Assembly: GCA_964609775.1 (NCBI GenBank)
Contig: CAZSSJ010000001.1
Span: 22,858 to 86,857, forward strand
DNA: 64,000 nt
From: an uncultured Gammaproteobacteria bacterium
Lineage (GTDB): Bacteria > Patescibacteriota > Microgenomatia > JAMCZE01
Reading direction: 5' to 3'
Shown: positions 2,704 to 62,037 of the stretch, piece by piece
Numbering within the stretch: position 1 is the stretch's first letter
Layout: every line of letters begins with the position of its first letter
The notes under the pieces: model-generated
Databases searched by the model: none
What the model was told of the DNA's origin: nothing
The model's input: the letters and a program-made list of their open reading frames with translations, nothing else
Program-made: the position numbers and the translations under genes

Positions 2704-4908
<2,205 letters not shown>

Positions 4909-21923: not shown

Positions 21924-21971
21924 GCTGGCTTGCCCTGAGCTTGTCGAAGGGTGGATTGTGAATTAACGAAA

Positions 21972-24900: not shown

Positions 24901-27900
24901 AAGAGACAGCGGGTTGCGGTTCAGGCTATAGCGACTGGTTTATCCATTTATTAAACGGCACCGTCAAGTTCTGGACATCCGGATCAGAGTGTACGGCCGT
25001 GGCATCCAATGCCACAGTCAATGACGGCAGTTGGCATCTCGTGACCGTGACACGAAAAAGATCAGACGGCAATCATATTATCTATATTGACGGGCAGTAT
25101 GATACTTCAAAAATCGGAAATACCGGTTCAATCGGCAACGCGGAAGATCTTTATTTCGGAACCATAAACGGAACGGCATCAGACTATACCGGTAGTCTCG
25201 ACGAAGTCCGGATCTATAACCGTGTCCTGTCTCCTGCCGAAGTCTCCATTCTTTACCAGTTTGCCGCCGGGCCGGTGGGGTATTGGAAGATGGAGGAAGG
25301 GGCGGGAACAACGGCCGCGGATTCCAGCGGCAATGGCTATACCACGGCGGCATTTACGGGAAACACCGCTTGGACAGCGGGGAAATTTGGCAAAGGGCTG
25401 ACCTTTGACGGAGACGGAGATTACGCCAGCATTACGGATGCTTCCGGAGTAAAGATTGATCTTGGGGCAACGACCGATTCATATACAGTCTCCGGGTGGG
25501 CAAAGACGTCGACCGATGGTTCGGGTAATGCCACGATCGTGGAGAAAAATGATGGATCTGGAGCCTATCCGTTTAGCTTGTATCTGAATTCTTCGGAACA
25601 TGCCTGTTTTCAGATTTCCGACGGGACCAATGCGCCTTCGGCCTGCGGATCGACGGCTTTGAGTGATGGCGCTTGGCATTATCTCACGGGCGTGCGGGAT
25701 GTTGGAGCAGACAAGGTCTATATTTATGTTGACGGGGTGCAGATCAATTCGGCGACGGATTCGACCACGGCCACAGCGGCCAATGGCGATGACACATCAA
25801 TCGGAAACGGCGGAACCTCTTATACAACGAATGATTTTACCGGACAAATTGACGAGGTGAGGATTTACAACTATTCGCGCAGCCCAAAACAAATTATAGA
25901 AGACTTAAATGTCGGGCACCCGACTGGGGGAAGTCCAATCGGCACAGCACATGGCTACTGGAAATTTGATGATGGGCGGGGAACGACAGCTTATGATTCC
26001 GGGGCCAGCCCGAATAATGGAGTTCTAACCAGTATGAACTTAGTGACCTCAGTTGGTATTTCCGGCTGGAACCCGAATGGGAAGTTTAATAAGGCATTAT
26101 CGTTTGACGGGAGCAATGATAACGTGGACTTCGGGGATCTTTCCTACACTGAAGGTGCTTCCAGTTTAAGCTGGAGTTTTTGGGTTAATCCGAATTCGGT
26201 CGCGGCGACGAAGTGTTTGTGGTGTAAATATAATAATGCGGCAACAGAGCGGTCGTGGGCGATTGAAAGCGGAACAACTAATGCTTCGGCGATTAGGGCC
26301 ACGCTGCCAACGAGCACGACGGAAGCGGATGGCACAACATACGGAGAAACACCGACCGGACAACTTAGTGTCGGAGTTTGGACCCACGTGGCAGTGGTCT
26401 ATGACGGAAATGCTTCAGGTAATTTGAACCGGCTGAAGATATATATTAATGGTGTTAAGCAGAATCTGGCTTTTGCCGGGACGATTCCGGCAACGACTCA
26501 GGCCACCACTTCCACGGCTAACGCTGGCGAAAGCTCCGATGGAGCCAGAAATTTTTCAGGCACACTTGATGAGATGAAGATCTACGGCGGGGCGCTGACA
26601 GAGGCTGAAGTGAAGTTGGATTATAACCGAGGGTCGGCAATTTCTTTGGGAGTTTTGGGAACTTCGACGGCCGACGGGAAGACCGCGTCAAGTTCGGCTG
26701 GGTCGGCTTATTGCCTGCCGGGAGATACCACAACGTGTAACCCGCCGGTGGCGGAGTGGCCTTATGAAGAAGGCCAGGGGACGAGCGTGGCTGACACGAG
26801 CGGAAACAACAACACGATGACTCTAAGCGCCGCCAGTCAATGGACGCATGGAGTCATCGGTCGCGGCATCACCTTCAACGGCACGAGCGACACGGCTGAT
26901 TACGGAGATGTGAATAATAAATTTGACAGCGTGACCAAGCTCACGGTGACGGCTTGGTTTAAGAAACCAAGCGTCGGGGGAAAAGTTTATATTGCCACGA
27001 AGGGCAGCGGCGCCAACGCGACACGTTTTGAACTGTCGGCTTTAACTGATGGTTTGATCTATTTTGTTGTCAGAAACGGGGTGTTATCGACAGCGTCCAC
27101 ATATAGCAATGACACGAATTGGCACCATGTGGCGCTGGTTTTTGATGGGACCCAAACGGGCAATGCCAATCGGTTGAAGGGGTTTATTGATGGCACGGCG
27201 CGCGCTCTGACTTTCTCAAACACTGTTCCGAGCTCGACGGGAAACTATGGCACCGCGAAGCTTTATTCCGGCTATCATGAATGGTTTAACCTGTATTCGG
27301 CCGGATATGTTGACCAGATGCGGGTTTTTGATTACCCCTTGACAGCGGCTCAAGTGGCCAACAACTATAACCGCGGCCTGCCTGCATCCTGGTGGAAGTT
27401 TGATGAGTGTCAGGGAACGGTAGCCAATGACTCAATCGCAACCATATCGGGTACGCTAAACGGTGGGACACCGGGAGACTGTAATACCGCAAGTACTGCC
27501 TGGGCCAATGGAAAAACAGGAAAGTTTAATTACTCATTAAAATTTGGCACTACACCCGATCTTACTACAGTGACTTCGACCAGTACGTATCCTTTTAGCC
27601 AAGTCAGCAGCCCTCCGGTATCATGGGGCGGATGGTTTTATCCGACTAGTTCGGTAAACAGTCAGGCATTTATCGATAAAAAGGATCAATTCCGGCTTTA
27701 CACCGACGGATCCGGAAATGCAATCTGCGGGGTGGCAACGGCTGCCGGATCCTACACCGATGCCTCATCGGTGACAGCTCCGATAACCTTAAATACCTGG
27801 AATCATGTACTTTGCACTTATGATGGTACCACTAGCTTGAAAACCTATGTAAATGGAATATTAAAAAATACTTCAACCATCTCTGTCGATATGTTTCTCA

Positions 27901-28067
27901 CGACAACCACATTGTATGTAGGCCAACTCAATGACGCTTCTAACCAGTTTACAGGCCAGGCAGATGATATAAAAATATGGGCATATTCTTTGACTGCTTA
28001 CCAGGTGCGGATGGAGTTTAACCAAAGCAGTGCTGTTAGGTTTGGGCCTAGTTCCGGGGCTCCCTGA
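21972..28067 (+). CDS. Large membrane-anchored DUF2341 / Gly-rich / multi-LamG (concanavalin-like) protein
   Basis: The ORF opens at 21951 (GTG), but the ATG at 21972 gives MKQIRR...LGIFLLSATIIVAGLLVFWV. DUF2341-like WGYRQIITL...DLRFTD...VWVTIP...IYMYYGN. Many LamG repeats ending ...DEVRIYNR.LS..EV. Confidence 0.85.
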   Translation: MKQIRRIRLIGLIRPIWAKKLGIFLLSATIIVAGLLVFWVNRNGGKVEAAWFDDSWGYRQIITLTNNGSTQTDYQVQVVVGTGDLIAAGKMQSDCNDLRFTDLSGKVLSYWTEYCRSGAGKNSSVWVTIPTLTTTPAPIYMYYGNPSAATASTFRSLPTGINLGDGADGAATVSGTVNFNSTTISGRTEADGVNPASTVLTALGSTTITATAAAGLSVGDEVLIINLQGTTSDYGNVGKYETARVTAINGAVLTLNHPLVNAYDGTTQKIMVQRVPNYSSVTVCTGSADPVAGCASAGTLNPASWSSGNGTGGVVMLRATGTVNVAASGSISGAGLGYAGGAGGPAGAKGGYGGDSYDGDNPRGGCADSSCTAGVGGGKSGSATGASPNSGGTRGGGGGGGSDGATNGTGGGAAGGGGGYGGGGGGGGANGDGYVALPSTANGGTGGSGGSTGTSAGGGGGGCRDNDGDNTAGANGGNAGSAGSNGSASCSGTAGTGGEVGSGATSGSGGGGAGGGLGSGGGGGGGGTYGTAALTTIFLGSGGGGGGGTTAGVDFAGAAGAAGGGIVYISAGTVTVAGAASANGADGTTPDAQTGSGGAGAGGSVFISGATVTLGSSLVSATGGAAGAADQAIAGSGGGGVGRIAVNYSTSTGSTNPSAGSTSTLPVAGSPSTEEKGNGPVAFWHLDDGQGTVAQDSTTNGNAGTLSGTTLPSWQTEDLCVSGKCLYFNGITSNVTAGTVNAVQTVSFWVRPASVSASLVQLASGVDVKAASGVVGTDGFTAPTIYVNGAKVTGSSATPFAASQWNFVTVTTGTGITANAITLGKMQTGVLNGFLDEVKLYHYARSAAQVKADYANSGINKGTGSVLGADPDQVNRTLSNGLVGYWKMDESGAGSCTGGANDSCDSSGNGNDGNWVNQAANTGGKFGNGVIFDGVNDTVDVAQSSSLNGVTDDITVSAWIKTTATGGGLTDNTFISKETAGCGSGYSDWFIHLLNGTVKFWTSGSECTAVASNATVNDGSWHLVTVTRKRSDGNHIIYIDGQYDTSKIGNTGSIGNAEDLYFGTINGTASDYTGSLDEVRIYNRVLSPAEVSILYQFAAGPVGYWKMEEGAGTTAADSSGNGYTTAAFTGNTAWTAGKFGKGLTFDGDGDYASITDASGVKIDLGATTDSYTVSGWAKTSTDGSGNATIVEKNDGSGAYPFSLYLNSSEHACFQISDGTNAPSACGSTALSDGAWHYLTGVRDVGADKVYIYVDGVQINSATDSTTATAANGDDTSIGNGGTSYTTNDFTGQIDEVRIYNYSRSPKQIIEDLNVGHPTGGSPIGTAHGYWKFDDGRGTTAYDSGASPNNGVLTSMNLVTSVGISGWNPNGKFNKALSFDGSNDNVDFGDLSYTEGASSLSWSFWVNPNSVAATKCLWCKYNNAATERSWAIESGTTNASAIRATLPTSTTEADGTTYGETPTGQLSVGVWTHVAVVYDGNASGNLNRLKIYINGVKQNLAFAGTIPATTQATTSTANAGESSDGARNFSGTLDEMKIYGGALTEAEVKLDYNRGSAISLGVLGTSTADGKTASSSAGSAYCLPGDTTTCNPPVAEWPYEEGQGTSVADTSGNNNTMTLSAASQWTHGVIGRGITFNGTSDTADYGDVNNKFDSVTKLTVTAWFKKPSVGGKVYIATKGSGANATRFELSALTDGLIYFVVRNGVLSTASTYSNDTNWHHVALVFDGTQTGNANRLKGFIDGTARALTFSNTVPSSTGNYGTAKLYSGYHEWFNLYSAGYVDQMRVFDYPLTAAQVANNYNRGLPASWWKFDECQGTVANDSIATISGTLNGGTPGDCNTASTAWANGKTGKFNYSLKFGTTPDLTTVTSTSTYPFSQVSSPPVSWGGWFYPTSSVNSQAFIDKKDQFRLYTDGSGNAICGVATAAGSYTDASSVTAPITLNTWNHVLCTYDGTTSLKTYVNGILKNTSTISVDMFLTTTTLYVGQLNDASNQFTGQADDIKIWAYSLTAYQVRMEFNQSSAVRFGPSSGAP

Positions 28068-36357: not shown

Positions 36358-37566
36358 ATGCAAGCCTTAATTGAAACCTACCATCGTTTACTTTCGGAAA
36401 TAGTACCGTCCTACTGGCGCCGGTTCTATGACGAGTTTGTCATGGATAGCCGGATGGTCGGCATTGTTGGGGCAAGAGGGGTGGGAAAGACCACGTTTCT
36501 TGTTAGCTATCTGCGGGAACACTACGGCGGTTCGGACAGGTCACTCTACGTCTCGGCGGACAACCTCTATTTTGTGGAGCATACTTTGATTGAAGTGGCG
36601 GATCAATTTGTCAAGGACTTCGCCGGGGAGATTTTGTGCATTGACGAGATTCACCGCTATAGGAATTGGAATCAGGAACTGAAAAATATTTACGACTCCT
36701 ACCCTAAACTGTCAGTAATATTTTCAGGGAGTTCGAGTGTTGATCTGGTGAAAGGGAAGTATGATCTATCCCGCCGGGCTAACTTGAAAACGATGTATGG
36801 CTTTTCCTTCCGGGAATATCTGGAGGTTTGGGAGAAAGCTAAATACCCGATTCTGACGCTGGCGGAAATTCGCACTAATCACACGATGTATGCTCAGGAA
36901 TTAATGAAGACGCCAAAAATCCTTGGTTATCTGAAACAGTATCTTAAGGGAGGTTACTACCCGACGTTTTTGGAAATGGGGAGCTACGGCGCCTATCAAA
37001 GCAGCCTGCGGGGGATTATTGACAAGATTATCTTTGAAGATATCAGTAGTTTTTATTCTTTAAATACCTCTAATTTGGACACTCTTAAGAAGATAATTTA
37101 TTTCTTTGGGACTGCCCAGCCCGGGACTGTTAACATCAACCGCCTGGCCGGAAGTTTAAAGAAGGACTATACCACAATTGCGGAGTATGTGCAGATTTTA
37201 AGAGATACCGGACTTCTTCGTTTTCTCCGGCGGAACAAACAAGGCCATGCTTTAGTGCGGGATGCAGAAAAGATTTATCTGGACAATCCGAATCTCCTTT
37301 ACGCTGTTAATCAGGAGGTAGGGAAGGAGCCACTGGTTGGAGTTTCGCGGGAGCTCTTTGTGATTGGCAGTTTGGAAAACGCAGACTACCACGTGTTTTT
37401 TTCTGAGGCGGCGGACGTTGAATGCGACGGGCACCTTTTTGAGATTGGGGGGAAGAACAAAACCGCCTCGCAGTTGAAAGGGAAAGAAGGATATTTAATT
37501 AGTGATGATGTCCTTGTTGGCGACTCCAGAACCATTCCCCTTTATTTGTTTGGGTTTTTGTCTTAA
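36358..37566 (+). CDS. AAA_14/DUF4143-family ATPase (second copy)
   Basis: 402 aa. Walker A GARGVGKTT, Walker B ILCIDEIH, DUF4143-like C-terminus. Confidence 0.75.
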   Translation: MQALIETYHRLLSEIVPSYWRRFYDEFVMDSRMVGIVGARGVGKTTFLVSYLREHYGGSDRSLYVSADNLYFVEHTLIEVADQFVKDFAGEILCIDEIHRYRNWNQELKNIYDSYPKLSVIFSGSSSVDLVKGKYDLSRRANLKTMYGFSFREYLEVWEKAKYPILTLAEIRTNHTMYAQELMKTPKILGYLKQYLKGGYYPTFLEMGSYGAYQSSLRGIIDKIIFEDISSFYSLNTSNLDTLKKIIYFFGTAQPGTVNINRLAGSLKKDYTTIAEYVQILRDTGLLRFLRRNKQGHALVRDAEKIYLDNPNLLYAVNQEVGKEPLVGVSRELFVIGSLENADYHVFFSEAADVECDGHLFEIGGKNKTASQLKGKEGYLISDDVLVGDSRTIPLYLFGFLS

Positions 37567-37621: not shown

Positions 37622-37670
37622 GGGAAATGAAAATGTTCCATGAGTTGCGATCGCGTTTTATGGAACAAAA
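37622..37670. repeat. Palindromic element copy 1 (GGGAAATG..ATGTTCCATG..GCGATCGC..TTATGGAACA)
   Basis: The 8-bp arms TGTTCCAT and ATGGAACA flank a central GCGATCGC. Lies between two convergent gene ends. Confidence 0.8.
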
Positions 37671-37736: not shown

Positions 37737-38414
37737 TTATTTTAGGATTTGGGGTCTTAAGCTTCGGGCGAGGGATTCATAGAATTTCTCCATGGCTTTT
37801 TGGTCAAAGGGGACGAGCATTTTGGGAAGATTCGTTATTTCCGCGGCCTTGAGGAAGCTTTGGGCCGTTTTAATAGTGTCTGTGGTGACGACGAATTTTT
37901 GGTCAGCACTGGTGAGGAGATCGGCTGCTGTCCAGTTTGTTTCTTTGATAATTAAGTAGAGGTCGACGTAATCTCGTTCACGGGCTTTGGTGCGGATCGT
38001 GTGGATCTTGTTGACGGCAATGTCGTAGAGGCTATCAATTTCGAGGCCGCGCCACCTGATTCCCGGTTTTAGACGGTTGAAGGAGTAGTGGTTAAAGTCG
38101 ACCTTGAAACGGCTGTTGTCAGGGTAGCGGAAGAAATATGTGTAGAAACCAAGGTCGTCATCGACGCTAACGTGACGGTATTCGAGGATACTTTGATTCC
38201 TTTTGATCCATTCAGTAACACGGTCGCCATTAAAGGAGCGATCGGTGAAGAAATCCAAATCGTAGGATTCCCGGTGGTGGAGGTACCAGCTGGCCAGACC
38301 GGTGCCGCCGCTTAAGTAGAAGTTATCGAGGAGATATTTTTCCTGAAGTACCAGGTCCAGAAATTGCTTCTGTCGAAGGCTAAGTCCTTCTCCTTGCGCC
38401 AGGGTTTGTTCCAT
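37737..38414 (-). CDS. Nucleotidyltransferase AbiEii/AbiGii-toxin-like protein (copy 1)
   Basis: FYLSGGTGLASWYLHHRESYDLDFF NTase motif. Paralog of 39317-39991. Confidence 0.6.
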   Translation of the reverse strand: MEQTLAQGEGLSLRQKQFLDLVLQEKYLLDNFYLSGGTGLASWYLHHRESYDLDFFTDRSFNGDRVTEWIKRNQSILEYRHVSVDDDLGFYTYFFRYPDNSRFKVDFNHYSFNRLKPGIRWRGLEIDSLYDIAVNKIHTIRTKARERDYVDLYLIIKETNWTAADLLTSADQKFVVTTDTIKTAQSFLKAAEITNLPKMLVPFDQKAMEKFYESLARSLRPQILK

Positions 38415-38719: not shown

Positions 38720-39004
38720 TCAGGTTGCTATGATGGTTGATTTGCGACCAAAGTCGTCTTGCCAGATTTTGAGTTTTTGCCCTTTCGGATAGTGTGTCGT
38801 CACATCATTTCTTGAGTCTGGATATAGTTGGCTGACATTAAATCCTTCGCCTGGTGCCAGGGAAATGATTTCAAGTGGACTTTGTGCATCGGAAGATAAT
38901 TCCCACTTTTTTTCTCCTTGAGACAGTTCCCGGGGAAAACGGAATTTGGGTAACAGGCCTCCTTCTGGATGCCAAAAATTGTCATACTCTATCTTACAGG
39001 TCAT
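38720..39004 (-). CDS. Small hypothetical protein A (94 aa) behind the shared promoter module
   Basis: ATG lies 6 nt after the GAGAAT of the module. No family recognised. Confidence 0.5.
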   Translation of the reverse strand: MTCKIEYDNFWHPEGGLLPKFRFPRELSQGEKKWELSSDAQSPLEIISLAPGEGFNVSQLYPDSRNDVTTHYPKGQKLKIWQDDFGRKSTIIAT

Positions 39005-39039
39005 AGCCTTATTCTCTCTCTCTCTGCTTAATTTGTCAA
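39005..39039 (-). promoter_or_regulatory. Shared promoter module, copy A: TTGACA-N17[(GA)n]-GAGAAT-N6-ATG
   Basis: Minus strand reads TTGACAAATTAAGCAGAGAGAGAGAGAATAAGGCTATG. Confidence 0.6.
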
Positions 39040-40045: not shown

Positions 40046-40291
40046 TTAATAATTATCAAGAATTTTTTTGGCCTTTATTTTTCGTTTTTCTGCTTCTGGA
40101 CTGATTTTTAATTTTTGGTCGAATGGCGCTTTTTGGTAGTAGGGATGGCTGTATTTTGGAGTTTTGCTAAATTTCTCTGGCACGTTCTTCCAGCCACATG
40201 TAAGAAGTACTCTCGTCGCTGGACGCGGTTTGATTGGTTTTATTAAGTGAAGAGATTGTTCAGACACCCCTTCAGACACCCCTTCAGACAC
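40046..40291 (-). CDS. Small hypothetical protein B (81 aa), GTG start, N-terminal (SEGV)n from a 12-bp tandem repeat
   Basis: GAGAAT-N6-GTG. An ATG 2 nt upstream opens only a 16-codon frame. No family recognised. Confidence 0.35.
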   Translation of the reverse strand: MSEGVSEGVSEQSLHLIKPIKPRPATRVLLTCGWKNVPEKFSKTPKYSHPYYQKAPFDQKLKISPEAEKRKIKAKKILDNY

Positions 40292-40336
40292 ATGTTTATT
40301 CTCTCTCTCTCTCTCTCTCTCTGCTTAATTTGTCAA
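40292..40336 (-). promoter_or_regulatory. Shared promoter module, copy B: spacer 27 nt, (TC)11 on the plus strand
   Basis: TTGACAAATTAAGC + long (AG)n + GAGAAT. Confidence 0.5.
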
Positions 40337-40665: not shown

Positions 40666-41074
40666 CAGGTTTGTCATTGACGCCAGCGTGGTTTTGGAAT
40701 GGGTGGAAACGAAAGAGTCGCCTCAAAAACAGAGGGCGCTTGGTCTCTATGAGCGGCTGGTGAAAGGTGAGGTGGCTTTTTCGGCGCCTTCATTTCTTCT
40801 GGTTGAGGTCATTAATGTGCTTTATTGGAAGAAAAGAAACACGGTTGAGGAGATCAGAGACTTTGTTGACCGGGTCAAGACTTCGGGGATTAATTTTGTT
40901 GACGGCGCGTTTTCAGCTGACGCCAGTGATGAGCTTCTGGATGCAGTTGGAAAGCATGAGATTACAGCCTATGACGCACAGTATGTGATTCTGGCAAAGA
41001 AGCTGGGAGTGAAGCTCCTGACGTTTGATGAGAAGTTGTTGGGGATTAAAGAAGTGGGTGCGGGGGAATGGTAG
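40655..41074 (+). CDS. vapC: PIN-domain toxin
   Basis: FVIDASVVLEW ... ITAYDAQYVILAKKLGVKLLTFDEKL. Confidence 0.8.
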   Translation: MTVDRFVIDASVVLEWVETKESPQKQRALGLYERLVKGEVAFSAPSFLLVEVINVLYWKKRNTVEEIRDFVDRVKTSGINFVDGAFSADASDELLDAVGKHEITAYDAQYVILAKKLGVKLLTFDEKLLGIKEVGAGEW

Positions 41075-41080
41075 AGAGAC

Positions 41081-41473
41081 CTACCATATTTCCTGTGGTC
41101 CATATTCCTGGTCGAAATCTTTTTGAGCTAAGCGAACATATTTCTCTTCGGTAATCTGCCAAGAGGTGCCGTCTCCCTTTGGATCCCATTCGGTGCGTAA
41201 TAGAACAGTGTTTGGTGTGCGGGTTTTCCAGCGAGATTCGCGAATGTCCGGCCTTTTTGTTCGAACCGCTTCATCATATTCATCGTATTTTCGACCCGTT
41301 AGTCCTATTCTTTCTTGAGCTAATCGACGGCCTTCTTCAGTCCAAGGACGAAATTCAATTCTCCTTCCTTGTTGGCCAGGTCCAAAACCAAGATTTGGAT
41401 GGAGAAAATAATCAAGTTCTATTTTATCCTGCTCAAATAGAGCTTGTGTCTCCGGCGATTGATTTACGGACAT
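41081..41473 (-). CDS. Small hypothetical protein C (130 aa), intact paralog of G
   Basis: Shares EGRRLAQERIGLTGRKY and TPNTVLLRTEWDPKGD with 48494-48877. Its stop is 6 nt from the vapC stop. Confidence 0.6.
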   Translation of the reverse strand: MSVNQSPETQALFEQDKIELDYFLHPNLGFGPGQQGRRIEFRPWTEEGRRLAQERIGLTGRKYDEYDEAVRTKRPDIRESRWKTRTPNTVLLRTEWDPKGDGTSWQITEEKYVRLAQKDFDQEYGPQEIW

Positions 41474-41508
41474 GGCCTTATTCTCTCTCTCTCTTCCTAA
41501 AAAGTCAA
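41474..41508 (-). promoter_or_regulatory. Shared promoter module, copy C (TTGACT variant): spacer 17, N6, ATG
   Basis: TTGACTTTTTAGGAAGAGAGAGAGAGAATAAGGCCATG. Confidence 0.6.
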
Positions 41509-41597
41509 ATTTGGTTGGGCCGGAAAAGTGGTCGTGTCTTATTTATGCGATCGCATTTTTAAGAAGTCAGTTGGTTGATAAGAGAAGATAGGATAAA

Positions 41598-43344: not shown

Positions 43345-43395
43345 TTGAATTACCTCCAAGGTCTATTGTCTCTCTCTCTCTTCCTAAAAAGTCAA
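43345..43395 (-). promoter_or_regulatory. Shared promoter module, copy D (TTGACT variant): spacer 19, -10 GACAAT, SD-containing leader
   Basis: TTGACTTTTTAGGAAGAGAGAGAGAGACAATAGACCTTGGAGGTAATTCAAATG. Confidence 0.55.
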
Positions 43396-43716: not shown

Positions 43717-43937
43717 TGCCTGAGATTCCTCAAATTAAACCTCGGAATGTGGAAAAAGTGCTACTGAAAAGAGGTTTTGTCGGCCGGACAACAAAAAGCA
43801 GTCATGTTGTTTTTGTTCATAAGGATGGCAGGCGCACAGTTGTTCCGGTTCACAATAAACCGGTGAGCACAGGAACTCTTCGGGCAATCCTTCGCCAGGC
43901 AAAGATTTCCGTGGAGGAGTTTTTGGAGGAAGTTTAA
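43716..43937 (+). CDS. hicA: HicA-family mRNA interferase toxin
   Basis: KPRNVEKVLLKRGFVGRTTKSSHVVFVHKDGRRTVVPVHNKPVSTGTLRAILRQAKI. Confidence 0.8.
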   Translation: MPEIPQIKPRNVEKVLLKRGFVGRTTKSSHVVFVHKDGRRTVVPVHNKPVSTGTLRAILRQAKISVEEFLEEV

Positions 43938-44374
43938 TTGGGAGATGGGGTTTCTGGTGGACTTGAGAACTTTTCTAGTTGTTTTGCTAGAGCCCTGAAA
44001 CCTGACAAAAACCATGTCTCGCCTTCATCCTCACTTTTTTTTGGTTCGAGACCGTACTCTTCAGACATTGCGTTGACAACTCCTGAGAAGTCGTTCAGGG
44101 TCTGAGCAGTTCTGAGGGCGTCTTGCCACAACTGTATACCTTGTTCCGCTGCCGCATACATTGCTGGGTCGTCTTGTGGATCTACACGGTTCCTGATTAT
44201 TAGCTCATTATTGAGTCTTGTTTGGGCGAGCAGAATTGCATCCTGCCGAGCTTTTCGGTCGGATACCGATTTTCCAACATATCTGTTTCTAAACTCAGCT
44301 GGTAGTCTGTTTTCCAGAACTGCCCAAGCTTTCCTGGGATTAAAGTTCTCTTCAACATTATTTTTTTCTGACAT
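43934..44374 (-). CDS. Small hypothetical protein E (146 aa)
   Basis: The ATG follows GAGAAT-N7. Its 3' end overlaps the hicA stop by 4 nt. No family recognised. Confidence 0.5.
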   Translation of the reverse strand: MSEKNNVEENFNPRKAWAVLENRLPAEFRNRYVGKSVSDRKARQDAILLAQTRLNNELIIRNRVDPQDDPAMYAAAEQGIQLWQDALRTAQTLNDFSGVVNAMSEEYGLEPKKSEDEGETWFLSGFRALAKQLEKFSSPPETPSPN

Positions 44375-44420
44375 TTGTTTTATTCTCTCTCTCTCTCTCT
44401 CTCTCTGCTTAATTTGTCAA
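44375..44420 (-). promoter_or_regulatory. Shared promoter module, copy E: spacer 27 nt, (TC)11
   Basis: TTGACAAATTAAGC + (AG)n + GAGAATAAAACAAATG. Confidence 0.5.
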
Positions 44421-44455
44421 GCTTGGACAATCCAGAATGGCCCAGGAGAATTTTA

Positions 44456-44496
44456 GGGAAAATGTTCGATGTTTTGTGATCGCGTTTTATGGAACA
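44456..44496. repeat. Palindromic element copy 2 (left arm and core each degenerate by one base)
   Basis: GGGAAAATGTTCGATGTTTTGTGATCGCGTTTTATGGAACA. Sits between the ruvB stop and module E. Confidence 0.75.
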
Positions 44497-44577
44497 AAAT
44501 GTTGGGTGGGAGAACGGCGTGGATTTTGTGTCAATCTGGACGAGAGGTTTCTTGGGGCAGTAGCAGTGGTGGGGATG

Positions 44578-46825: not shown

Positions 46826-47104
46826 TTAAGTTTTTAAGCAGTTGGCGTTTTGCTGGAGGGTCCTCTCACTTATTCTTGAGATTGAAGATAGGCTAGCTCC
46901 CCCTTCCGTGCTGCCGAATCCCCCACAAGAGATTGCTTCAGGACTGGTTTCCTTAAATAGGGGGCAGCTTAGGCAGTATCTTCGGAACAGCTCTGACGGA
47001 CCGAAGAATTCAGGGTCTTCATAGGACACTATTAGCAGAAAGCCGGCATAGTCACTGGTCGGGGAGTATCGTATTGTTGCTTCAGGCTGCTCGACTTCTA
47101 ACAT
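46826..47104 (-). CDS. Small hypothetical protein F (92 aa)
   Basis: The ATG follows GAGAAT-N7 of the module. No family recognised. Confidence 0.45.
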   Translation of the reverse strand: MLEVEQPEATIRYSPTSDYAGFLLIVSYEDPEFFGPSELFRRYCLSCPLFKETSPEAISCGGFGSTEGGASLSSISRISERTLQQNANCLKT

Positions 47105-47140
47105 GGCCTTTATTCTCTCTCTCTCTGCTTAATTTGTCAA
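47105..47140 (-). promoter_or_regulatory. Shared promoter module, copy F: spacer 17, N7, ATG
   Basis: TTGACAAATTAAGCAGAGAGAGAGAGAATAAAGGCCATG. Confidence 0.6.
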
Positions 47141-47164
47141 GTTGGGACAGTTCAATGAGTCTTT

Positions 47165-47205
47165 GGGGAAATGTTCCATGGAATGCGATCGCGTTTTATG
47201 GAACA
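47165..47205. repeat. Palindromic element copy 3 (best-preserved)
   Basis: GGGGAAATGTTCCATGGAATGCGATCGCGTTTTATGGAACA, in the divergent region between gene F and fic. Confidence 0.8.
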
Positions 47206-47291
47206 GGGGGTTGATTTTTGACGGCAGTCAAAATTTGTATTGGGAACAAAATCTTATATAATCTAATATAGTCGCTATATGAGATTTAACT

Positions 47292-48365: not shown

Positions 48366-48493
48366 TCCCCTCGTGTTAGACTGATTGGGGTTCGAGTTTT
48401 GAATGAAAGCTTGGGGTGAGGCTTCTGATTTTTGATGAGAAGTTGTTGGGGATTAGGGATGTGACTGTGGAGAAGCTCCCGGATTGATCAGAG

Positions 48494-48877
48494 CTATTTA
48501 GGTTCGTGGCGGGAATATTCTTCCTCGAAGTCTTCAGGTGGGAGCCGGACATATCTTTCTTCTTTCGTCGGCCAAGTGTCGTCTCCTTTTGGATCCCATT
48601 CTGTCCGTCGCAGGACCACGTTTGGGGTGCAGGTTTCCAGAACAGACTTGCGGGCGAGGCCAAATTCTTGGTCAAAAGTTACTTCCTGGTATTTTCGGCC
48701 GGTTAGACCTATTCTTTCTTGGGCAAGTTGACGCCCTTCCGAAGTGTGAGGAGTAAAGTCCACCCACTTGCCTGCTTGGGTAGGTCCAAGTCCTAGCTCG
48801 GCGGTTAGGAACTATTCCAGGCGACCTTTGTCGTCTTTAATTTGTTGTTCATTTCTTTCTTGAGAGATTGCAGACAT
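48494..48877 (-). pseudogene. Small gene G, paralog of C, interrupted by an in-frame TAG at 48812-48814
   Basis: From the ATG at 48877: MSAISQERNEQQIKDDKGRLE-stop-FLTAELGLGPTQAGKWVDFTPHTSEGRQLAQERIGLTGRKY... The stop aligns with the Tyr of ...IELDYFLHPNLGFGP in C. Confidence 0.6.
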
Positions 48878-48912
48878 GGCTTTATTCTCTCCCTCTCTTC
48901 CTAAAAAGTCAA
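48878..48912 (-). promoter_or_regulatory. Shared promoter module, copy G (TTGACT variant, interrupted GA tract): spacer 17, N6
   Basis: TTGACTTTTTAGGAAGAGAGGGAGAGAATAAAGCCATG. Confidence 0.55.
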
Positions 48913-48936
48913 ATTTGGACAGTCCGGGAGGGTTCT

Positions 48937-48976
48937 GGGGAAATGTTCAATGAAACGCGATCGCGAGTGTGGAACG
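48937..48976. repeat. Palindromic element copy 4 (degenerate)
   Basis: GGGGAAATGTTCAATGAAACGCGATCGCGAGTGTGGAACG. Confidence 0.7.
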
Positions 48977-49044
48977 ACTGTCGAACTTGGGTGGAGAGAT
49001 GAGAAAAGTGACACAAATTGCGCTAGTGTGAATTTTGTGTCAAT

Positions 49045-49140
49045 TTGGAGTGAGTTAATTTAACCGTATTGGGGTACGGATCTGGAGGGCCATCAGGTAG
49101 GTTGCTGCGACGACCTTCCTGAGGAGTGGTCTCAGGAGGG
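49045..49140 (+). pseudogene. Decayed LamG 3' remnant plus conserved hairpin
   Basis: About 80% identity by eye between 49098-49140 and 29505-29546, including tag-(a/g)ttg.tg...TTCCTGAGG.GTGGTCTC.GGA. The upstream gagttaatttaacc resembles gagtttaacc of the true gene end. Confidence 0.45.
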
Positions 49141-59344: not shown

Positions 59345-59378
59345 TTCGCCTATTCTCTCTCTCTGCTTCTTTTGTCAA
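59345..59378 (-). promoter_or_regulatory. Shared promoter module, copy H: spacer 15, N7, ATG
   Basis: TTGACAAAAGAAGCAGAGAGAGAGAATAGGCGAAATG. Like copy A, it is followed upstream by the palindrome TTGTCAAGC-nnn-GCTTGACAA. Confidence 0.55.
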
Positions 59379-59788: not shown

Positions 59789-60036
59789 GACTTCAGTTTT
59801 CAAAAGATGCCCTAAAACAACTGGAAAAGATATCCCGAAACGAGGCTAAAAAGATTACCAGGAAACTGGAACAACTCGAAACTGAGCCCCTCGTTGGCAA
59901 GAAACTGGCTGGGGAGCTAGCCGATCAGTTTTCACTGCGAGCCTGGCCTTACAGAATCATTTATCAGGTTTATCCGAAAGCACAGACTGTGTTGATAATA
60001 CACATTGAGCATCGGCAGGGAGTTTACAAAAATTGA
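59785..60036 (+). CDS. relE: RelE/ParE-family toxin
   Basis: 83 aa. ...LRAWPYRIIYQVYPKAQTVLIIHIEHRQGVY. 4-nt overlap with phd. Confidence 0.8.
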   Translation: MRLQFSKDALKQLEKISRNEAKKITRKLEQLETEPLVGKKLAGELADQFSLRAWPYRIIYQVYPKAQTVLIIHIEHRQGVYKN

Positions 60037-60796
60037 GCTGTTTTGCGATCTTGTGAGGGGGTTGATTTTCTTACATCGGGGTGTTACTTCTAATTTGGTG
60101 ACTAATCCACAAGATGTTCACAAGTCCGGGGATGCGGGAAATGTTTCGCCCTTGCAATTTACGACGCAGTTGCCGCGGTTAATGCCGCTTGGAGTGGCGG
60201 CTCTGGGAATTTTGCTGATCGGCGTAGGGATTTTTTGGGAATACTTCAAAACGCATCAGAATCCATCAAGTAAAAATAGCAGTCAAAAGTTAGTTGTTGG
60301 GGAGGAAGGAATGGTGGCAAGTGTGGCGGGAGTGAAAAACCAAGTGAAAGGAAGAACAATCTTTGTTGATGTCTCTGGGGCTGTGGAAAAACCTCAAGTT
60401 GTGGAAGTGCCATATGATTCCCGCGTAAAGGATGTGCTTATTGCCGCAGGTGGTTTGACCCCGAAAGCTGACCGAAATTATGTATCTAAGTCAATCAATT
60501 TAGCTCAGAAGGTTCAAGATGGCACGAAGATCTATGTTCCGGCTCAGGGCGAGATGGTCTCTGTTTCAGCGCCTCAAGTCTCAGGGAATTCAGGGCAATT
60601 AGGGATACAGGGAAATTTAATAAACATTAATGAAGCAAGTGAGTCAGAACTCGATTCATTGCCGGGAGTGGGGCCGGTGACGGCGCAGAAGATAATTTCA
60701 GGCAGGCCCTATCAGGAGGTGTCGGAACTGGTGAGTAAGAAGATTGTTAATCAGTCGGTTTTTGACAAAATCAGGGATAAGGTCGCAGCCTATTAG
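60005..60796 (+). CDS. comEA: ComEA-like DNA-binding competence protein (TM, SLBB-like domain, tandem HhH)
   Basis: INEASESELDSLPGVGPVTAQKIISGRPYQEVSELV. The start is uncertain: the track ORF overlaps relE, and internal GTG/ATG candidates lie at 60099-60182. Confidence 0.75.
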   Translation: MSIGREFTKIELFCDLVRGLIFLHRGVTSNLVTNPQDVHKSGDAGNVSPLQFTTQLPRLMPLGVAALGILLIGVGIFWEYFKTHQNPSSKNSSQKLVVGEEGMVASVAGVKNQVKGRTIFVDVSGAVEKPQVVEVPYDSRVKDVLIAAGGLTPKADRNYVSKSINLAQKVQDGTKIYVPAQGEMVSVSAPQVSGNSGQLGIQGNLININEASESELDSLPGVGPVTAQKIISGRPYQEVSELVSKKIVNQSVFDKIRDKVAAY

Positions 60797-60801
60797 CTTT
60801 C

Positions 60802-62037
60802 ATGAATATTAAGAAGACTTGGATAGGACTTCTTCTCGTTCTCGGGCTGCGGTTTGGCCAGTATTATTATCAGCTGCCGGAAAGGGTCGGCGGGGAAGTA
60901 GTGACGATCCGAGGAGTGTTAGGAAGTGAGCCGGCCCAGGCGAATGGGCGGCAAACCTTGAGCCTGGATGGGCTGTATGTTTCCGTGCGGACGCCGCCGG
61001 AATTTCATTATGGTGACGAGGTGATGGTCGAAGGCAAACTGTTGTGTTACGATACCTTCAGATGTATTAGAGGACGGATTGAGCGAGCAAGAGTGAGTTT
61101 AGTGGCACAAGATCAAGGCGGGCTTTTGGGGAGGTGGGGCTACCTGGCGAGGATGAAGTTTCAGGACGTCTACTTTGGCTCTTTGAAAAGAGAAGAAGCC
61201 AATCTTTTATCCGGGGTCCTTGTGGGGAGCATCGGTTTAGACAGGACCTTTAAAGAGAAGCTGGCGAATGTGGGTTTGACTCACGTCGTGGCGGCCTCAG
61301 GAATGAATTTGACATTGTTTGTAGGGTTTTTGATCGGTTTTTTCAAGTATTTTCACTGGAGTAGACCTTTGTCGGCGGTATTTTCGATCGGAGCTGTTGT
61401 CTTGTATGCGATAATTGCCGGATTTGCTCCGGCGATTGTCCGAGCCGGACTGATGGTGGGAGGGGTTTTGATCGGGTTGAGTCTGGGGAGAAAAGGAGGG
61501 GGTTGGTGGGGGTTGGTAATGGCTGGGTATTTAATGCTATGGGTTGATCCGAGACTAATAGTCGACTTCAGTTTTTTGTTGTCCTTTGCCTCAATGATGG
61601 GCCAGATTGTTCTTAGCACTTGGAAGATTCATTTGCCAAATGTTTTTAAGTGGCTGGCTGAGAATATTTTGCAAAGTGTTATGGCGATTGTGTTCACTCT
61701 GCCGATAATCATCATCGGGTTTGCCCGATTTTCACTCATTTCCATGATTTCGAACCTCCTGGTTTTGTGGACAATTGAACCACTGATGATTCTGGGGGGT
61801 CTGGCTGGAATCGTTGGTCTGGTTTTGCCGGAACTTGCTAAACTCATTTTAATTCCCGCAGGAGTTCTTCTTGATTACTTCCTTTCTGTCGTAAAAATTC
61901 TCGGAACGGGTGAAAATTTCCTTTTAAGGGTCTCCGGGTTCAACGGGCTTATGGCCGTCGGTTACTATTTAATCCTTGCTGGTGTGTATTACTACTTAAT
62001 GTACTATAAAACCCCAAAGCATACCAATAAGGTGTAA
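60802..62037 (+). CDS. comEC: ComEC/Rec2-family competence channel (membrane domain only)
   Basis: Polytopic membrane protein. GLTHVVAASGMNLTLF motif. Confidence 0.8.
   Translation: MNIKKTWIGLLLVLGLRFGQYYYQLPERVGGEVVTIRGVLGSEPAQANGRQTLSLDGLYVSVRTPPEFHYGDEVMVEGKLLCYDTFRCIRGRIERARVSLVAQDQGGLLGRWGYLARMKFQDVYFGSLKREEANLLSGVLVGSIGLDRTFKEKLANVGLTHVVAASGMNLTLFVGFLIGFFKYFHWSRPLSAVFSIGAVVLYAIIAGFAPAIVRAGLMVGGVLIGLSLGRKGGGWWGLVMAGYLMLWVDPRLIVDFSFLLSFASMMGQIVLSTWKIHLPNVFKWLAENILQSVMAIVFTLPIIIIGFARFSLISMISNLLVLWTIEPLMILGGLAGIVGLVLPELAKLILIPAGVLLDYFLSVVKILGTGENFLLRVSGFNGLMAVGYYLILAGVYYYLMYYKTPKHTNKV

What the first reader, a model, noticed from the sequence alone, without database searches (positions are those of the whole stretch)
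47165..47205. Dispersed palindromic element (ATGTTCCAT..GCGATCGC..ATGGAACA) upstream of the shared promoters
There are four clear copies (37622-37670, 44456-44496, 47165-47205, 48937-48976) and a degenerate one around TGCGATCGCA at 41546-41555. The consensus is GGGGAAATGTTCCATGnnnTGCGATCGCGTTTTATGGAACA, with 8-bp inverted arms around a self-complementary GCGATCGC. Four lie 14-35 nt beyond the -35 box of a small-gene module. On the minus strand the hairpin is followed by TTTCCCC, so it could terminate upstream transcription from ruvB, the AbiEii-like gene and the GH26 gene. But copy 3 sits in a purely divergent region with nothing to terminate, which favours an operator or mobile-element role. 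Conservation continues further out: E and G share TTGGGTGG(G)AGA and (G/A)ATTTTGTGTCAAT(C/T)TGGA at 44512-44530 and 49031-49049.
Basis: seen in the sequence. Interest (0 to 1): 0.55.

Follow-up and report, generated by a model that had tools for sequence, protein, structure and literature searches.

The report
Small palindromic DNA repeat, GCGATCGC core
A 34-base palindromic repeat built around GCGATCGC occurs four to five times in a 12-kb accessory island of an uncultivated groundwater bacterium; it looks like a REP-type repeat copied along with a shared promoter, not a terminator or proven operator, and similar palindromes sit in frame inside genes of another candidate-phyla bacterium.

Summary
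There are four co-oriented copies of GGGRAAA-TGTTCnAT-N5-GCGATCGC-N4-5-ATGGAACA, plus a fifth 28-nt palindrome with the same core. All lie within 37.6-49.0 kb, with none elsewhere in about 75 kb of the contig. The host is a Microgenomates (CPR) bacterium from the Rifle aquifer.

Three clear copies and the degenerate one sit 28-42 nt upstream of the -35 box of a repeated leaderless promoter cassette and share its flanks. Copy 1 is a true solo copy between convergent genes.

- **Terminator reading: not supported.** There is no U-tract, and the two copies placed to terminate ruvB and GH26 do not fold better than shuffled sequence.
- **Operator reading: weakened.** Half of the eight promoter modules lack the element. 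Fic homologues carry a different conserved palindrome and never this one. RuvB relatives at 79-83% identity lack the element.
- **Related palindromes elsewhere.** In Gribaldobacteria and other Parcubacteria, GCGATCGC-centred palindromes lie between genes and in frame inside thiI and miaB. Their arms change in a compensatory way.

Best reading: an untagged, REP-like hairpin or cruciform repeat, mostly co-duplicated with a mobile promoter cassette. How it spreads is unknown. Interest is moderate.

The parts
37622..37670 (+). Copy c1. Tag GGGAAATGAAAA, arms TGTTCCAT / ATGGAACA, core GCGATCGC. A solo copy centred in the 170-nt gap between convergent genes: an AAA_14 ATPase (36358-37566, +) and an AbiEii gene (37737-38414, -).
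   Evidence: Genes. Flanks are not similar to those of other copies. Hairpin energy is -16.8 kcal/mol on the + strand and -10.5 on the - strand.
44456..44496 (+). Copy c2, degraded: left arm TGTTCGAT and core GTGATCGC. It lies 81 nt past the ruvB stop, and 42 nt separate it from the -35 box of the promoter module for the 146-aa ORF 43934-44374 (-).
   Evidence: It folds no better than shuffles on either strand. Flanks on both sides are shared with c4.
47165..47205 (+). Copy c3, the reported locus. Arms are perfect. It lies between divergent genes: 31 nt separate it from the -35 box (47140-47135) of the orf92-ruvCAB promoter, and it ends 87 nt before the Fic ATG (47292).
   Evidence: Hairpin energy is -20.2 kcal/mol on the + strand and -11.1 on the - strand. 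It lies outside the Fic promoter region conserved in other lineages.
48937..48976 (+). Copy c4, degraded: arms TGTTCAAT / GTGGAACG, with a 1-nt deletion in the right spacer. It lies 218 nt past the GH26 stop, and 31 nt separate it from the -35 box (48912-48907) of the module in front of a frameshifted copy of the 130-aa ORF.
   Evidence: (D4, D6, D10, D12).
41537..41564 (.). Copy c5: a 28-nt palindrome TCTTATTTATGCGATCGCATTTTTAAGA with the same core and different arms. It lies between divergent -35 boxes, 41508 (-) and 41598 (+), the latter serving an AbiEi-like wHTH gene.
   Evidence: (I19). The promoter-side flank is homologous to that of c4.
47102..47171 (-). Shared promoter cassette next to c3: GGACAGT block, TTGACA, 17-nt spacer containing the (AG)n tract, GAGAAT, then ATG 7 nt later (a leaderless layout). 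Paralogous cassettes adjoin c2 (44372-44462), c4 (48875-48943) and c5 (41471-41536). Cassettes without the palindrome lie at about 39004-39039, 40291-40336, 43359-43395 and 59378.
   Evidence: (D2, D3, D6).
44497..44540 (-). Far-side shared block of the composite repeat (TCTCCCACCCAA and TCCAGATTGACACAAAATCC on the minus strand). The paralogue next to c4 is at 48977-49049 and carries a roughly 30-nt insertion.
   Evidence: The c2-c4 far-side similarity has p<0.001.

Best explanation
The element is a low-copy palindromic DNA repeat of the REP type: a short dyad that can form a hairpin or cruciform.

**Form.** I infer that its ancestral form was a near-perfect 34-bp palindrome, TGTTCCAT-(G/A)AAAC-GCGATCGC-GTTTT-ATGGAACA, with a one-sided tag GGGGAAA.

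**How it reached its present places.**
- Shown: it belongs to a wider set of GCGATCGC-centred palindromes present in CPR genomes.
- Shown: in this window, copies c2-c5 are the upstream end of a repeated 110-170-nt intergenic cassette. That cassette also carries a leaderless promoter, TTGACA-17-GAGAAT. The shared flanks imply that these copies spread by duplication of the cassette.
- Shown: c1 is an independent solo copy.
- Inferred: the sequence acts, if at all, through its dyad symmetry, as a single-strand hairpin or cruciform used during copying or recombination.
- Inferred: at its present sites it is largely neutral. At most it may have side effects, such as absorbing supercoiling between divergent promoters or weakly impeding read-through.

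**Decay.** The copies are decaying under this replicon's strong G+T strand bias and are not being maintained by compensatory change. The enzyme that spreads the element is unknown.
For: **Repeat status and distribution**
- Four copies have nhmmer E-values of 1e-13 to 1e-15.
- All copies lie within 37.6-49.0 kb. None was found in the rest of the window or in about 11.5 kb of added contig.

**Relation to the promoter cassette**
- Promoter-side flanks of c2-c5 are all significantly similar (p<0.001).
- c2 and c4 also share the far side (p<0.001).
- c1 shares neither side (p = 0.07-0.6).

**Lineage specificity**
- Relatives with 79-83% identical RuvB keep ruvCAB. They have no element, no GCGATCGC, no promoter module and no orf92.
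- The six population contigs aligned to the window carry identical copies.

**Decay pattern**
- c2 and c4 have non-compensated arm changes.
- Taking the conserved right half as the ancestral state, 15 of 16 left-half differences replace A or C with G or T (sequences).
- This matches the window's GC skew of about +0.2 and its T>A bias in this region.

**The wider set of palindromes**
- A Gribaldobacteria (Parcubacteria) genome carries TGTTCCATTTTGCTGCGATCGCAGCGAAATGGAACA at four loci. One lies between divergent genes, one between convergent genes, and two lie in frame inside miaB and thiI.
- The thiI insert is absent from 106 of 121 homologues. In the lineages that share it, the arms changed on both sides: TGTTCCAT/ATGGAACA became TGTAACAA/TTGTTACA.
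- Every GCGATCGC in the Parcubacteria loci sits in a palindrome of 10-13 pairs out of 14.
- Over 12 distinct copies, 80.9% of cells pair against 61.0 +/- 2.6% in shuffles, and 14 of 17 pairs show two-sided changes.

**Agreement with known REPs**
- Published REP features match: 20-40 bp, families of fewer than 20 up to thousands of units, and known intragenic units (PMC3733652).
Against: - No transposase, RAYT or recombinase is present in the window.
- There are no target-site duplications.
- No empty site was seen in any population contig, so mobility in this lineage is inferred, not shown.
- Copy number is very low and local.
- REPs usually carry a GTAG or CGTC tag, which is absent here.
- The identical arms in the window and in Gribaldobacteria could partly reflect ascertainment, because the search pattern required them. 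The spacers differ completely.
- The regular placement needs explanation: 31 nt separate both c3 and c4 from their -35 boxes, and c3 and c5 sit midway between divergent -35 boxes. Duplication explains this, but so would a regulatory role.
- In Gribaldobacteria, one copy abuts the extended -10 of a PaaX-like wHTH gene. That looks like an operator.
Confidence: 0.5

Rival explanations
1. Operator or activator site. A dimeric or tetrameric HTH regulator binds the two outer half-sites (TGTTCC...GGAACA) and perhaps the central GCGATCGC. From about -84 it controls the shared small-gene promoters, and the divergent neighbours as well.
For: - The position is fixed. 31 nt separate both c3 and c4 from their -35 boxes, and their centres lie at -84.5 and -83.5 from the ATG, which is also the likely transcript start.
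- c3 and c5 lie about midway between two divergent -35 boxes.
- The symmetry is tripartite, and the spacer is variable while arms and core are conserved.
- In Gribaldobacteria, one copy ends 3-7 nt before the extended -10 (TGaTATAAT) of a PaaX-like wHTH gene, and a second copy follows its stop codon.
- From memory only: PaaX operators are 6-bp inverted repeats with a spacer of about 26 bp.
Against: - 4 of 8 promoter modules lack the element.
- c1 has no promoter.
- The promoter-linked copies c2 and c4 are the degraded ones.
- No PaaX-like gene is in the window.
- Fic homologues in three other lineages conserve a different palindrome (ATCTTATATAG..CTATAAGAT) and never have this element.
- ruvCAB relatives lack it.
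- Related copies lie inside thiI and miaB coding sequences.
- The distance between half-sites differs by 2 bp between the two lineages.
Confidence: 0.2
2. Minus-strand intrinsic terminator or insulator. The hairpin plus UUUCCCC would stop read-through from AbiEii, ruvB and GH26 before the next promoter.
For: - c1, c2 and c4 lie 69, 81 and 218 nt past the stop of a minus-strand gene.
- A short T-rich tail follows the hairpin on the minus strand.
- c1 and c3 fold at -10.5 and -11.1 kcal/mol on that strand (z = -2.4 and -3.7).
Against: - The terminator scan calls none of the copies.
- Tails have only 3-4 T.
- c2 (-1.8 kcal/mol) and c4 (-7.5 kcal/mol) fold no better than shuffles. These are the two copies behind real operons.
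- c3 and c5 have nothing upstream to terminate.
- The hairpin is stronger on the + strand (-16.8 and -20.2 kcal/mol).
- Relatives of the element sit inside open reading frames, where a terminator would be harmful.
Confidence: 0.08
3. Site-specific or structure-specific recombination site, in the manner of attC or dif. It would mark the borders of cassettes that were slotted around ruvCAB.
For: - All four copies point the same way and cut the island into blocks: Fic plus a pseudogene, orf92-ruvCAB, and a 12-gene toxin-antitoxin block.
- In Gribaldobacteria, two co-oriented copies bracket a single gene.
- The better-folding strand is the G-rich one, which is presumably the lagging-strand template.
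- The flanks are mosaic: c3 shares only the promoter-side flank with the other copies, while c2 and c4 share both sides.
Against: - No integrase or Xer-type recombinase is in the window.
- The arms do not match the attC R''/R' cores (RYYYAAC/GTTRRRY).
- No excised or empty variants occur in the population contigs that were aligned.
- A core housekeeping operon lies between two copies.
Confidence: 0.12

Closest known systems
REP elements (repetitive extragenic palindromes), including the short Rickettsia elements RPE-4 and RPE-6
   Same: - A 20-40-bp imperfect palindrome forming a stem-loop.
- Mostly intergenic, often after genes or between convergent genes.
- Families can be small.
- Related copies can sit in frame inside genes.
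- One-sided unpaired tag.

Source: PMC3733652.
   Different: - There is no GTAG or CGTC tag. The tag here is GGGGAAA.
- No RAYT transposase was seen.
- Only 4-5 copies were found, clustered in 12 kb.
- The core is the octamer GCGATCGC.
- Most copies are tied to a promoter cassette.
HIP1 (highly iterated palindrome 1, GCGATCGC) of cyanobacteria
   Same: The octamer is identical and is over-represented relative to chance: 6 observed against 0.92 expected in the window.
   Different: - The host is a Microgenomates (CPR) bacterium, not a cyanobacterium.
- Density is about 1 per 10 kb, not about 1 per gene.
- Here the octamer is the centre of a 28-36-nt palindrome. That is not part of the HIP1 description (PMC5861425, PMC4390886).
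Putative mobile promoters ('promoter propagation in prokaryotes', PMC3488235)
   Same: A near-identical promoter and start-codon region stands in front of unrelated small ORFs at eight places. The palindrome travels with it in four of them.
   Different: - The palindrome is separable from the cassette: c1 is a solo copy.
- The cassette carries a length-variable (AG)n tract in its spacer.
Correia and other MITE-like elements that carry promoters or terminators
   Same: A short non-coding repeat with inverted symmetry that places regulatory signals next to genes.
   Different: - There are no terminal inverted repeats enclosing the cassette.
- There is no target-site duplication.
- The palindrome is only 34 nt.
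Integron attC sites
   Same: Co-oriented imperfect palindromes between small cassettes, many of them toxin-antitoxin genes. One strand folds better than the other.
   Different: - There are no R''/R' core motifs.
- No IntI gene is present.
- The cassettes have their own promoters and mixed orientations.
- A housekeeping operon lies inside the array.

Membership tests
REP (repetitive extragenic palindrome) | 20-40-bp imperfect palindrome able to form a stem-loop | tested here: met
   The dyad is 34 nt. c1 and c3 fold at -16.8 and -20.2 kcal/mol on the + strand, z about -3.2 to -3.6.
REP (repetitive extragenic palindrome) | GTAG or CGTC tag at one end (PMC3733652) | tested here: not met
   The ends read GGGRAAA-TGTTCC...GGAACA-(A/G)n. 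No GTAG, CTAC, CGTC or GACG adjoins any copy.
REP (repetitive extragenic palindrome) | Dispersed multi-copy family, mainly downstream of genes or between convergent and unidirectional ORFs | tested here: inconclusive
   4-5 copies in about 75 kb, all within 12 kb. Three of five lie downstream of a gene and two lie in divergent gaps. The rest of the genome could not be reached.
REP (repetitive extragenic palindrome) | Associated RAYT (Y1 transposase) gene | tested here: inconclusive
   None of the window proteins scanned with Pfam is one. The whole genome is not available here.
HIP1 of cyanobacteria | Octamer GCGATCGC | tested here: met
   Exact in c1, c3, c4 and c5. c2 has GTGATCGC.
HIP1 of cyanobacteria | Genome-wide hyper-abundance (15- to 300-fold over-representation, up to more than one per gene; PMC5861425 abstract) | tested here: not met
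   6 per 64 kb, about 6.5-fold over expectation, and four of the six belong to this repeat.
HIP1 of cyanobacteria | Cyanobacterial host with DmtA and DmtC methyltransferases | tested here: not met
   The host is a Microgenomates group bacterium. No methyltransferase was found among the scanned window proteins. The rest of the genome was not tested.
Intrinsic (Rho-independent) terminator | G+C-rich stem-loop followed at once by a U-run | tested here: not met
   No copy is called by the scan. The tails have 3-4 T.
Intrinsic (Rho-independent) terminator | Stable hairpin kept at every copy that follows a gene | tested here: not met
   On the minus strand c2 folds at -1.8 and c4 at -7.5 kcal/mol, within the shuffle range. 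The arm changes are not compensatory.
Transcription-factor operator of the shared promoters | Dyad site at a fixed position relative to the promoter | tested here: met
   The gap between the -35 box and the element is 31 nt (c3), 31 nt (c4), 42 nt (c2) and 28 nt (c5).
Transcription-factor operator of the shared promoters | Present at all promoters of the set, and only there | tested here: not met
   It is absent from the modules at about 39039, 40336, 43395 and 59378. c1 has no promoter.
Transcription-factor operator of the shared promoters | Site conserved together with a candidate regulator gene in other genomes | tested here: not met
   Fic-wHTH homologues in L094-L099 lack it and conserve another palindrome. 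No PaaX-like gene is in the window. Binding itself cannot be tested here.
Integron attC | R'' (RYYYAAC) and R' (GTTRRRY) core sites, and an adjacent intI gene | tested here: not met
   The arms ATGGAAC and GTTCCAT do not fit these cores. No integrase is in the window.
MITE | Terminal inverted repeats with target-site duplication | tested here: not met
   No consistent direct repeat flanks the copies.
In-frame palindromic insertions of the RPE type | Palindromic repeat inserted in frame in protein-coding genes | tested here: not met
   All window copies are intergenic. The feature is met only by the related Parcubacteria copies in thiI and miaB.
parS (ParB binding site) | Contiguous 16-bp palindrome TGTTNCACGTGAAACA | tested here: not met
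   The arms resemble parS half-sites but are 18 nt apart. There is no canonical parS in the window: 1 hit at 3 mismatches against 2.35 expected.

The most novel reading that the evidence does not exclude
GCGATCGC-centred palindromes are a CPR-wide class of self-propagating hairpin elements. Alternatively, they are products of an enzyme that acts on that octamer. They colonise intergenic DNA and, in frame, essential genes such as thiI and miaB. Their dyad symmetry is kept by compensatory change. The window's copies would be the Microgenomates branch of this class. Because the octamer is the same as cyanobacterial HIP1, the two phenomena would share a driver such as a methyltransferase, a nuclease or DNA uptake. 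That would give an independent second system for the unsolved question of what HIP1 does.
Probability: 0.2. Interest if true: 0.7.

Novelty: new variant of a known kind. Interest (0 to 1): 0.4.

Why it matters
For this window, it means the palindromes should not be annotated as terminators or as a shown operator. They mark a recently assembled accessory island, built from repeated promoter cassettes around ruvCAB.

More broadly, short palindromes built on the cyanobacterial HIP1 octamer turn up in two CPR superphyla. Some are translated as part of housekeeping enzymes. If that holds up in a systematic census, it adds a repeat class to genomes thought to be streamlined. It also offers a comparative handle on why GCGATCGC is favoured.

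Tried and rejected
- **Species-representative genomes.** The scan gave only 32 single hits in unrelated phyla, about the number I estimate for chance. The source genome is not in that collection, so no genome-wide census was possible.
- **Viral contigs.** One chance hit.
- **Rfam, 36-51 kb at E<=1.** Nothing.
- **Canonical parS.** Absent, so the parS-like half-site idea was dropped.
- **LexA/SOS box.** Considered because c3 precedes ruvCAB. The Patescibacteria LexA paper is not held, relatives' ruvCAB lack the element, and GTTC...GAAC is in the wrong order for a Cheo box. Not pursued.
- **Fic C-terminal wHTH as the binder.** Fic homologues keep a different promoter palindrome and lack this element.
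- **PaaX-like regulator.** No homologue in the window.
- **c1 as a relic of a promoter cassette.** The apparent similarity is not significant.
- **GGAAAT tag as a + strand -10 box.** It lacks the key A at position 2, so I rejected it.
- **Target-site duplications.** None are consistent.
- **Small ORFs behind the shared promoters.** No hit in Pfam, NCBIfam or PADLOC.
- **Literature.** Searches for the arm motifs and for CPR palindromic insertions found nothing relevant.

Full report
**1. What is in the sequence**

The reported motif is present at all four stated places, always on the + strand.

| Copy | Span | Sequence of the dyad |
|---|---|---|
| c1 | 37634-37667 | TGTTCCATGAGTTGCGATCGCGTTTTATGGAACA |
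| c2 | 44463-44496 | TGTTCGATGTTTTGTGATCGCGTTTTATGGAACA |
| c3 | 47172-47205 | TGTTCCATGGAATGCGATCGCGTTTTATGGAACA |
| c4 | 48944-48976 | TGTTCAATGAAACGCGATCGCGAGTGTGGAACG |

Each copy is preceded by GGGRAAA.

- The consensus with up to 3 mismatches has 3 hits against 0.00 expected.
- A profile built from the four copies recovers them at E = 1e-13 to 1e-15, and nothing else in 64 kb scores below E = 0.5.
- GCGATCGC occurs 6 times against 0.92 expected.
- The 'degenerate' copy at 41546 is a 28-nt palindrome of its own, TCTTATTTATGCGATCGCATTTTTAAGA (41537-41564). It has the same core but different arms.

**2. Host and setting**

The window is part of contig MFJK01000007.1 of GCA_001780905.1, a Microgenomates (CPR) bacterium from the Rifle aquifer. 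GC skew is strongly positive along nearly the whole window.

The copies lie in a 12-kb stretch of AbiE-like, HicAB, PIN and Fic genes and orphan small ORFs that surrounds a ruvC-ruvA-ruvB operon. There is no recombinase, transposase, ParB or methyltransferase among the window proteins scanned.

Eight near-identical promoter modules, all on the minus strand, precede unrelated orphan ORFs. Each reads TTGAC(A/T), a spacer containing an (AG)n tract, GAGAAT, then ATG about 7 nt later, which implies leaderless transcripts.

| Copy | Position relative to promoters and genes |
|---|---|
| c3 | 31 nt separate it from a module's -35 box |
| c4 | 31 nt separate it from a module's -35 box |
| c2 | 42 nt separate it from a module's -35 box |
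| c5 | 28 nt separate it from a module's -35 box |
| c1 | Middle of the gap between two convergent genes; no promoter |

Four modules have no palindrome. Local-alignment tests against shuffles show:
- the promoter-side flanks of c2-c5 are homologous (p<0.001);
- c2 and c4 also share the far side (p<0.001);
- c1 shares neither side (p = 0.07-0.6).

So the palindrome is usually one end of a 110-170-nt repeated cassette, but it also exists alone.

**3. Structure**

| Copy | + strand (kcal/mol) | - strand (kcal/mol) | Note |
|---|---|---|---|
| c1 | -16.8 | -10.5 | z on the + strand about -3.2 |
| c3 | -20.2 | -11.1 | z on the + strand about -3.6 |
| c2 | -9.2 | -1.8 | No better than shuffles on either strand |
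| c4 | -10.1 | -7.5 | No better than shuffles on either strand |

None of the copies meets a stem-plus-T-run terminator definition.

The right half, GCGTTTTATGGAACA, is identical in c1-c3. Its reverse complement predicts a left half, TGTTCCATAAAACGC. The observed left halves differ from this at 16 positions. In 15 of these, A or C has been replaced by G or T, which creates G.T pairs on the + strand.

This matches the strand bias of the replicon. It therefore does not by itself show selection for a hairpin. This step is inference. The arm changes in c2 and c4 are not compensated.

**4. Comparison with relatives of the host**

The six population contigs aligned to the window carry identical copies. 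The nearest other lineages, with RuvB 79-83% identical, keep ruvCAB. They have no palindrome, no GCGATCGC, no promoter module and no orf92. The island and its repeats are therefore specific to this lineage.

**5. Related elements elsewhere**

A scan of species-representative genomes found only single hits, about the number I estimate for chance. A scan of metagenome contigs found a multi-copy relative in Candidatus Gribaldobacteria (Parcubacteria, Crystal Geyser): TGTTCCATTTTGCTGCGATCGCAGCGAAATGGAACA. This is a nearly perfect 36-nt palindrome, with hairpin energies of -29 to -31.5 kcal/mol and z about -8.
- Two co-oriented copies bracket a PaaX-like wHTH gene next to yebC, a few kb from dnaA-dnaN.
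- The upstream copy ends just before that gene's extended -10 box.
- Two further copies lie in frame inside miaB and thiI.

In thiI the element is part of a 60-nt insert that 106 of 121 homologues lack. Two other lineages have an insert at the same codon. Their arms have changed on both sides, and one has a decayed core:
- TGTAACAAATCGCTGCGATCGCATCAAATTGTTACA
- CTAACAAATTACCGCGATGGTGTTAATTTGTTAG

The same thiI gene holds a second GCGATCGC-cored palindrome, TTAACAAATTAGTGCGATCGCACAAATTTGTTAA.

Every GCGATCGC in the Parcubacteria loci I hold is embedded in a palindrome of 10-13 pairs out of 14. The chance of 9 or more pairs at a random position is 0.2-0.8%.

Over 12 distinct copies:
- 80.9% of cells pair, against 61.0 +/- 2.6% in shuffles and 31-44% when the partners are slid;
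- 14 of 17 pairs show two-sided changes.

Caveat: the search pattern required the window's arms. The exact arm identity between Microgenomates and Gribaldobacteria may therefore be partly ascertainment. What is solid is the shared architecture, a dyad centred on GCGATCGC.

**6. Testing the regulatory reading**

Fic homologues (about 70% identical) from three other CPR lineages share a conserved promoter and a palindrome, ATCTTATATAG-N-CTATAAGAT, between the -10 box and the ATG. The window equivalent is at about 47258-47284. None of them has GCGATCGC or the element within 4 kb.

Copy 3 therefore lies outside the Fic cassette, and the Fic wHTH is an unlikely binder. No PaaX-like gene is in the window. 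Rfam finds nothing in the region.

**7. Interpretation**

- **Best reading (about 0.5).** An untagged REP-like palindromic repeat with a GCGATCGC core. It was mostly copied together with a mobile promoter cassette, exists once as a solo copy, and is now decaying. It works, if at all, through dyad symmetry at the DNA or single-strand level. The spreading enzyme is unknown.
- **Operator or activator site (about 0.2).** Supported by the regular spacing and by the Gribaldobacteria promoter overlap. Weakened by the missing copies, the solo copy, the degraded promoter-linked copies and the intragenic relatives.
- **Recombination site (about 0.12).** Co-orientation and block structure fit, but no recombinase and no variants were seen.
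- **Terminator (about 0.08).** Contradicted by folding and by the lack of a U-run.

**8. Relation to known systems**

The element works like a REP. It fails the REP tag test (PMC3733652), and no RAYT is seen, so I do not file it as a member of a described REP family.

It shares the octamer of cyanobacterial HIP1 but not its abundance or its host. Papers on HIP1 that I checked do not mention hairpins or non-cyanobacterial occurrences.

The promoter cassette fits 'putative mobile promoters' (PMC3488235).

Overall this is a new variant of a known kind. Interest is moderate for the window itself. It would be higher if the CPR-wide class and its link to HIP1 are confirmed.

Noticed in passing
window 44384-44407, and the paralogous tracts at about 39011-39030, 40300-40325, 41480-41500, 43365-43385, 47112-47130, 48884-48905 and 59350-59378: The shared promoter modules carry an (AG)n tract, (CT)n on the + strand, between TTGACA and GAGAAT. 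Its length ranges from about 5 to 11 units, so the spacer is 17 nt in some modules and about 27 nt in others. The tract upstream of ORF 43934-44374 is one unit longer in two other samples (L003, L006). These are candidate slipped-strand, phase-variable, leaderless promoters. All eight lie on the minus strand.
   Followed up: partly
L042 23-1279, L089 7172-8455 and L090 6757-7989 (thiI); L045 6184-7494 (miaB): Parcubacteria housekeeping genes carry several short in-frame palindromic inserts of different families. Examples are L042 26-69 (GGAATTTGGGGACGTTTCCCCGTTGGGAAACGTCCCCAAATTCC) and L089 7279-7306 (GGGACAGTCCCCATTTGGGGACAGTCCC). One loop of ThiI has received different inserts in 15 of 121 homologues.
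   Followed up: partly
window 47240-47291; L094 about 3940-4000; L096 about 3925-4000; L098 about 3940-4000: The Fic-wHTH gene travels with a conserved promoter and a palindrome, ATCT(T/A)ATATAG-N3-5-CTATA(A/T)GAGAT, between the -10 box and the ATG in four CPR lineages. The proteins are about 70% identical across Microgenomates, Parcubacteria and Buchananbacteria. It is probably an autoregulated, horizontally moving cassette. In L098 it sits just after tRNA-like sequence.
   Followed up: partly
window 40969-41473 versus 48376-48877: This is a segmental duplication: the 3' end of the PIN gene, the 130-aa orphan ORF, the promoter and the palindrome. In the second copy the PIN gene is truncated and the ORF is frameshifted (D4, D10, D12).
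   Followed up: partly
window 1-64000: GC skew is unusually strong and almost uniformly positive (about +0.1 to +0.38 per 2 kb), whatever the gene orientation.
   Followed up: no
window 46826-47104: A 92-aa orphan ORF with the shared promoter sits directly upstream of ruvC. Relatives with 79-83% identical RuvB lack it. Its protein cluster has a single member.
   Followed up: partly
window 5946-21923 and 21951-28067: Two giant ORFs of 5325 and 2038 aa. The gene call on a sister contig lists Hint and intein-splicing domains for the first. Two GCGATCGC sites without palindromic arms lie inside the first ORF (11913 and 21210).
   Followed up: no
window 60005-62037: Adjacent ComEA-like (SLBB + HHH_3) and ComEC genes. 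This may matter because HIP1 has been linked to natural transformation in cyanobacteria. No link was tested.
   Followed up: no
L048 8618-8670: Just after the second Gribaldobacteria copy there is a tandem repeat, three units of TTGTTAAAATCCTC.
   Followed up: no
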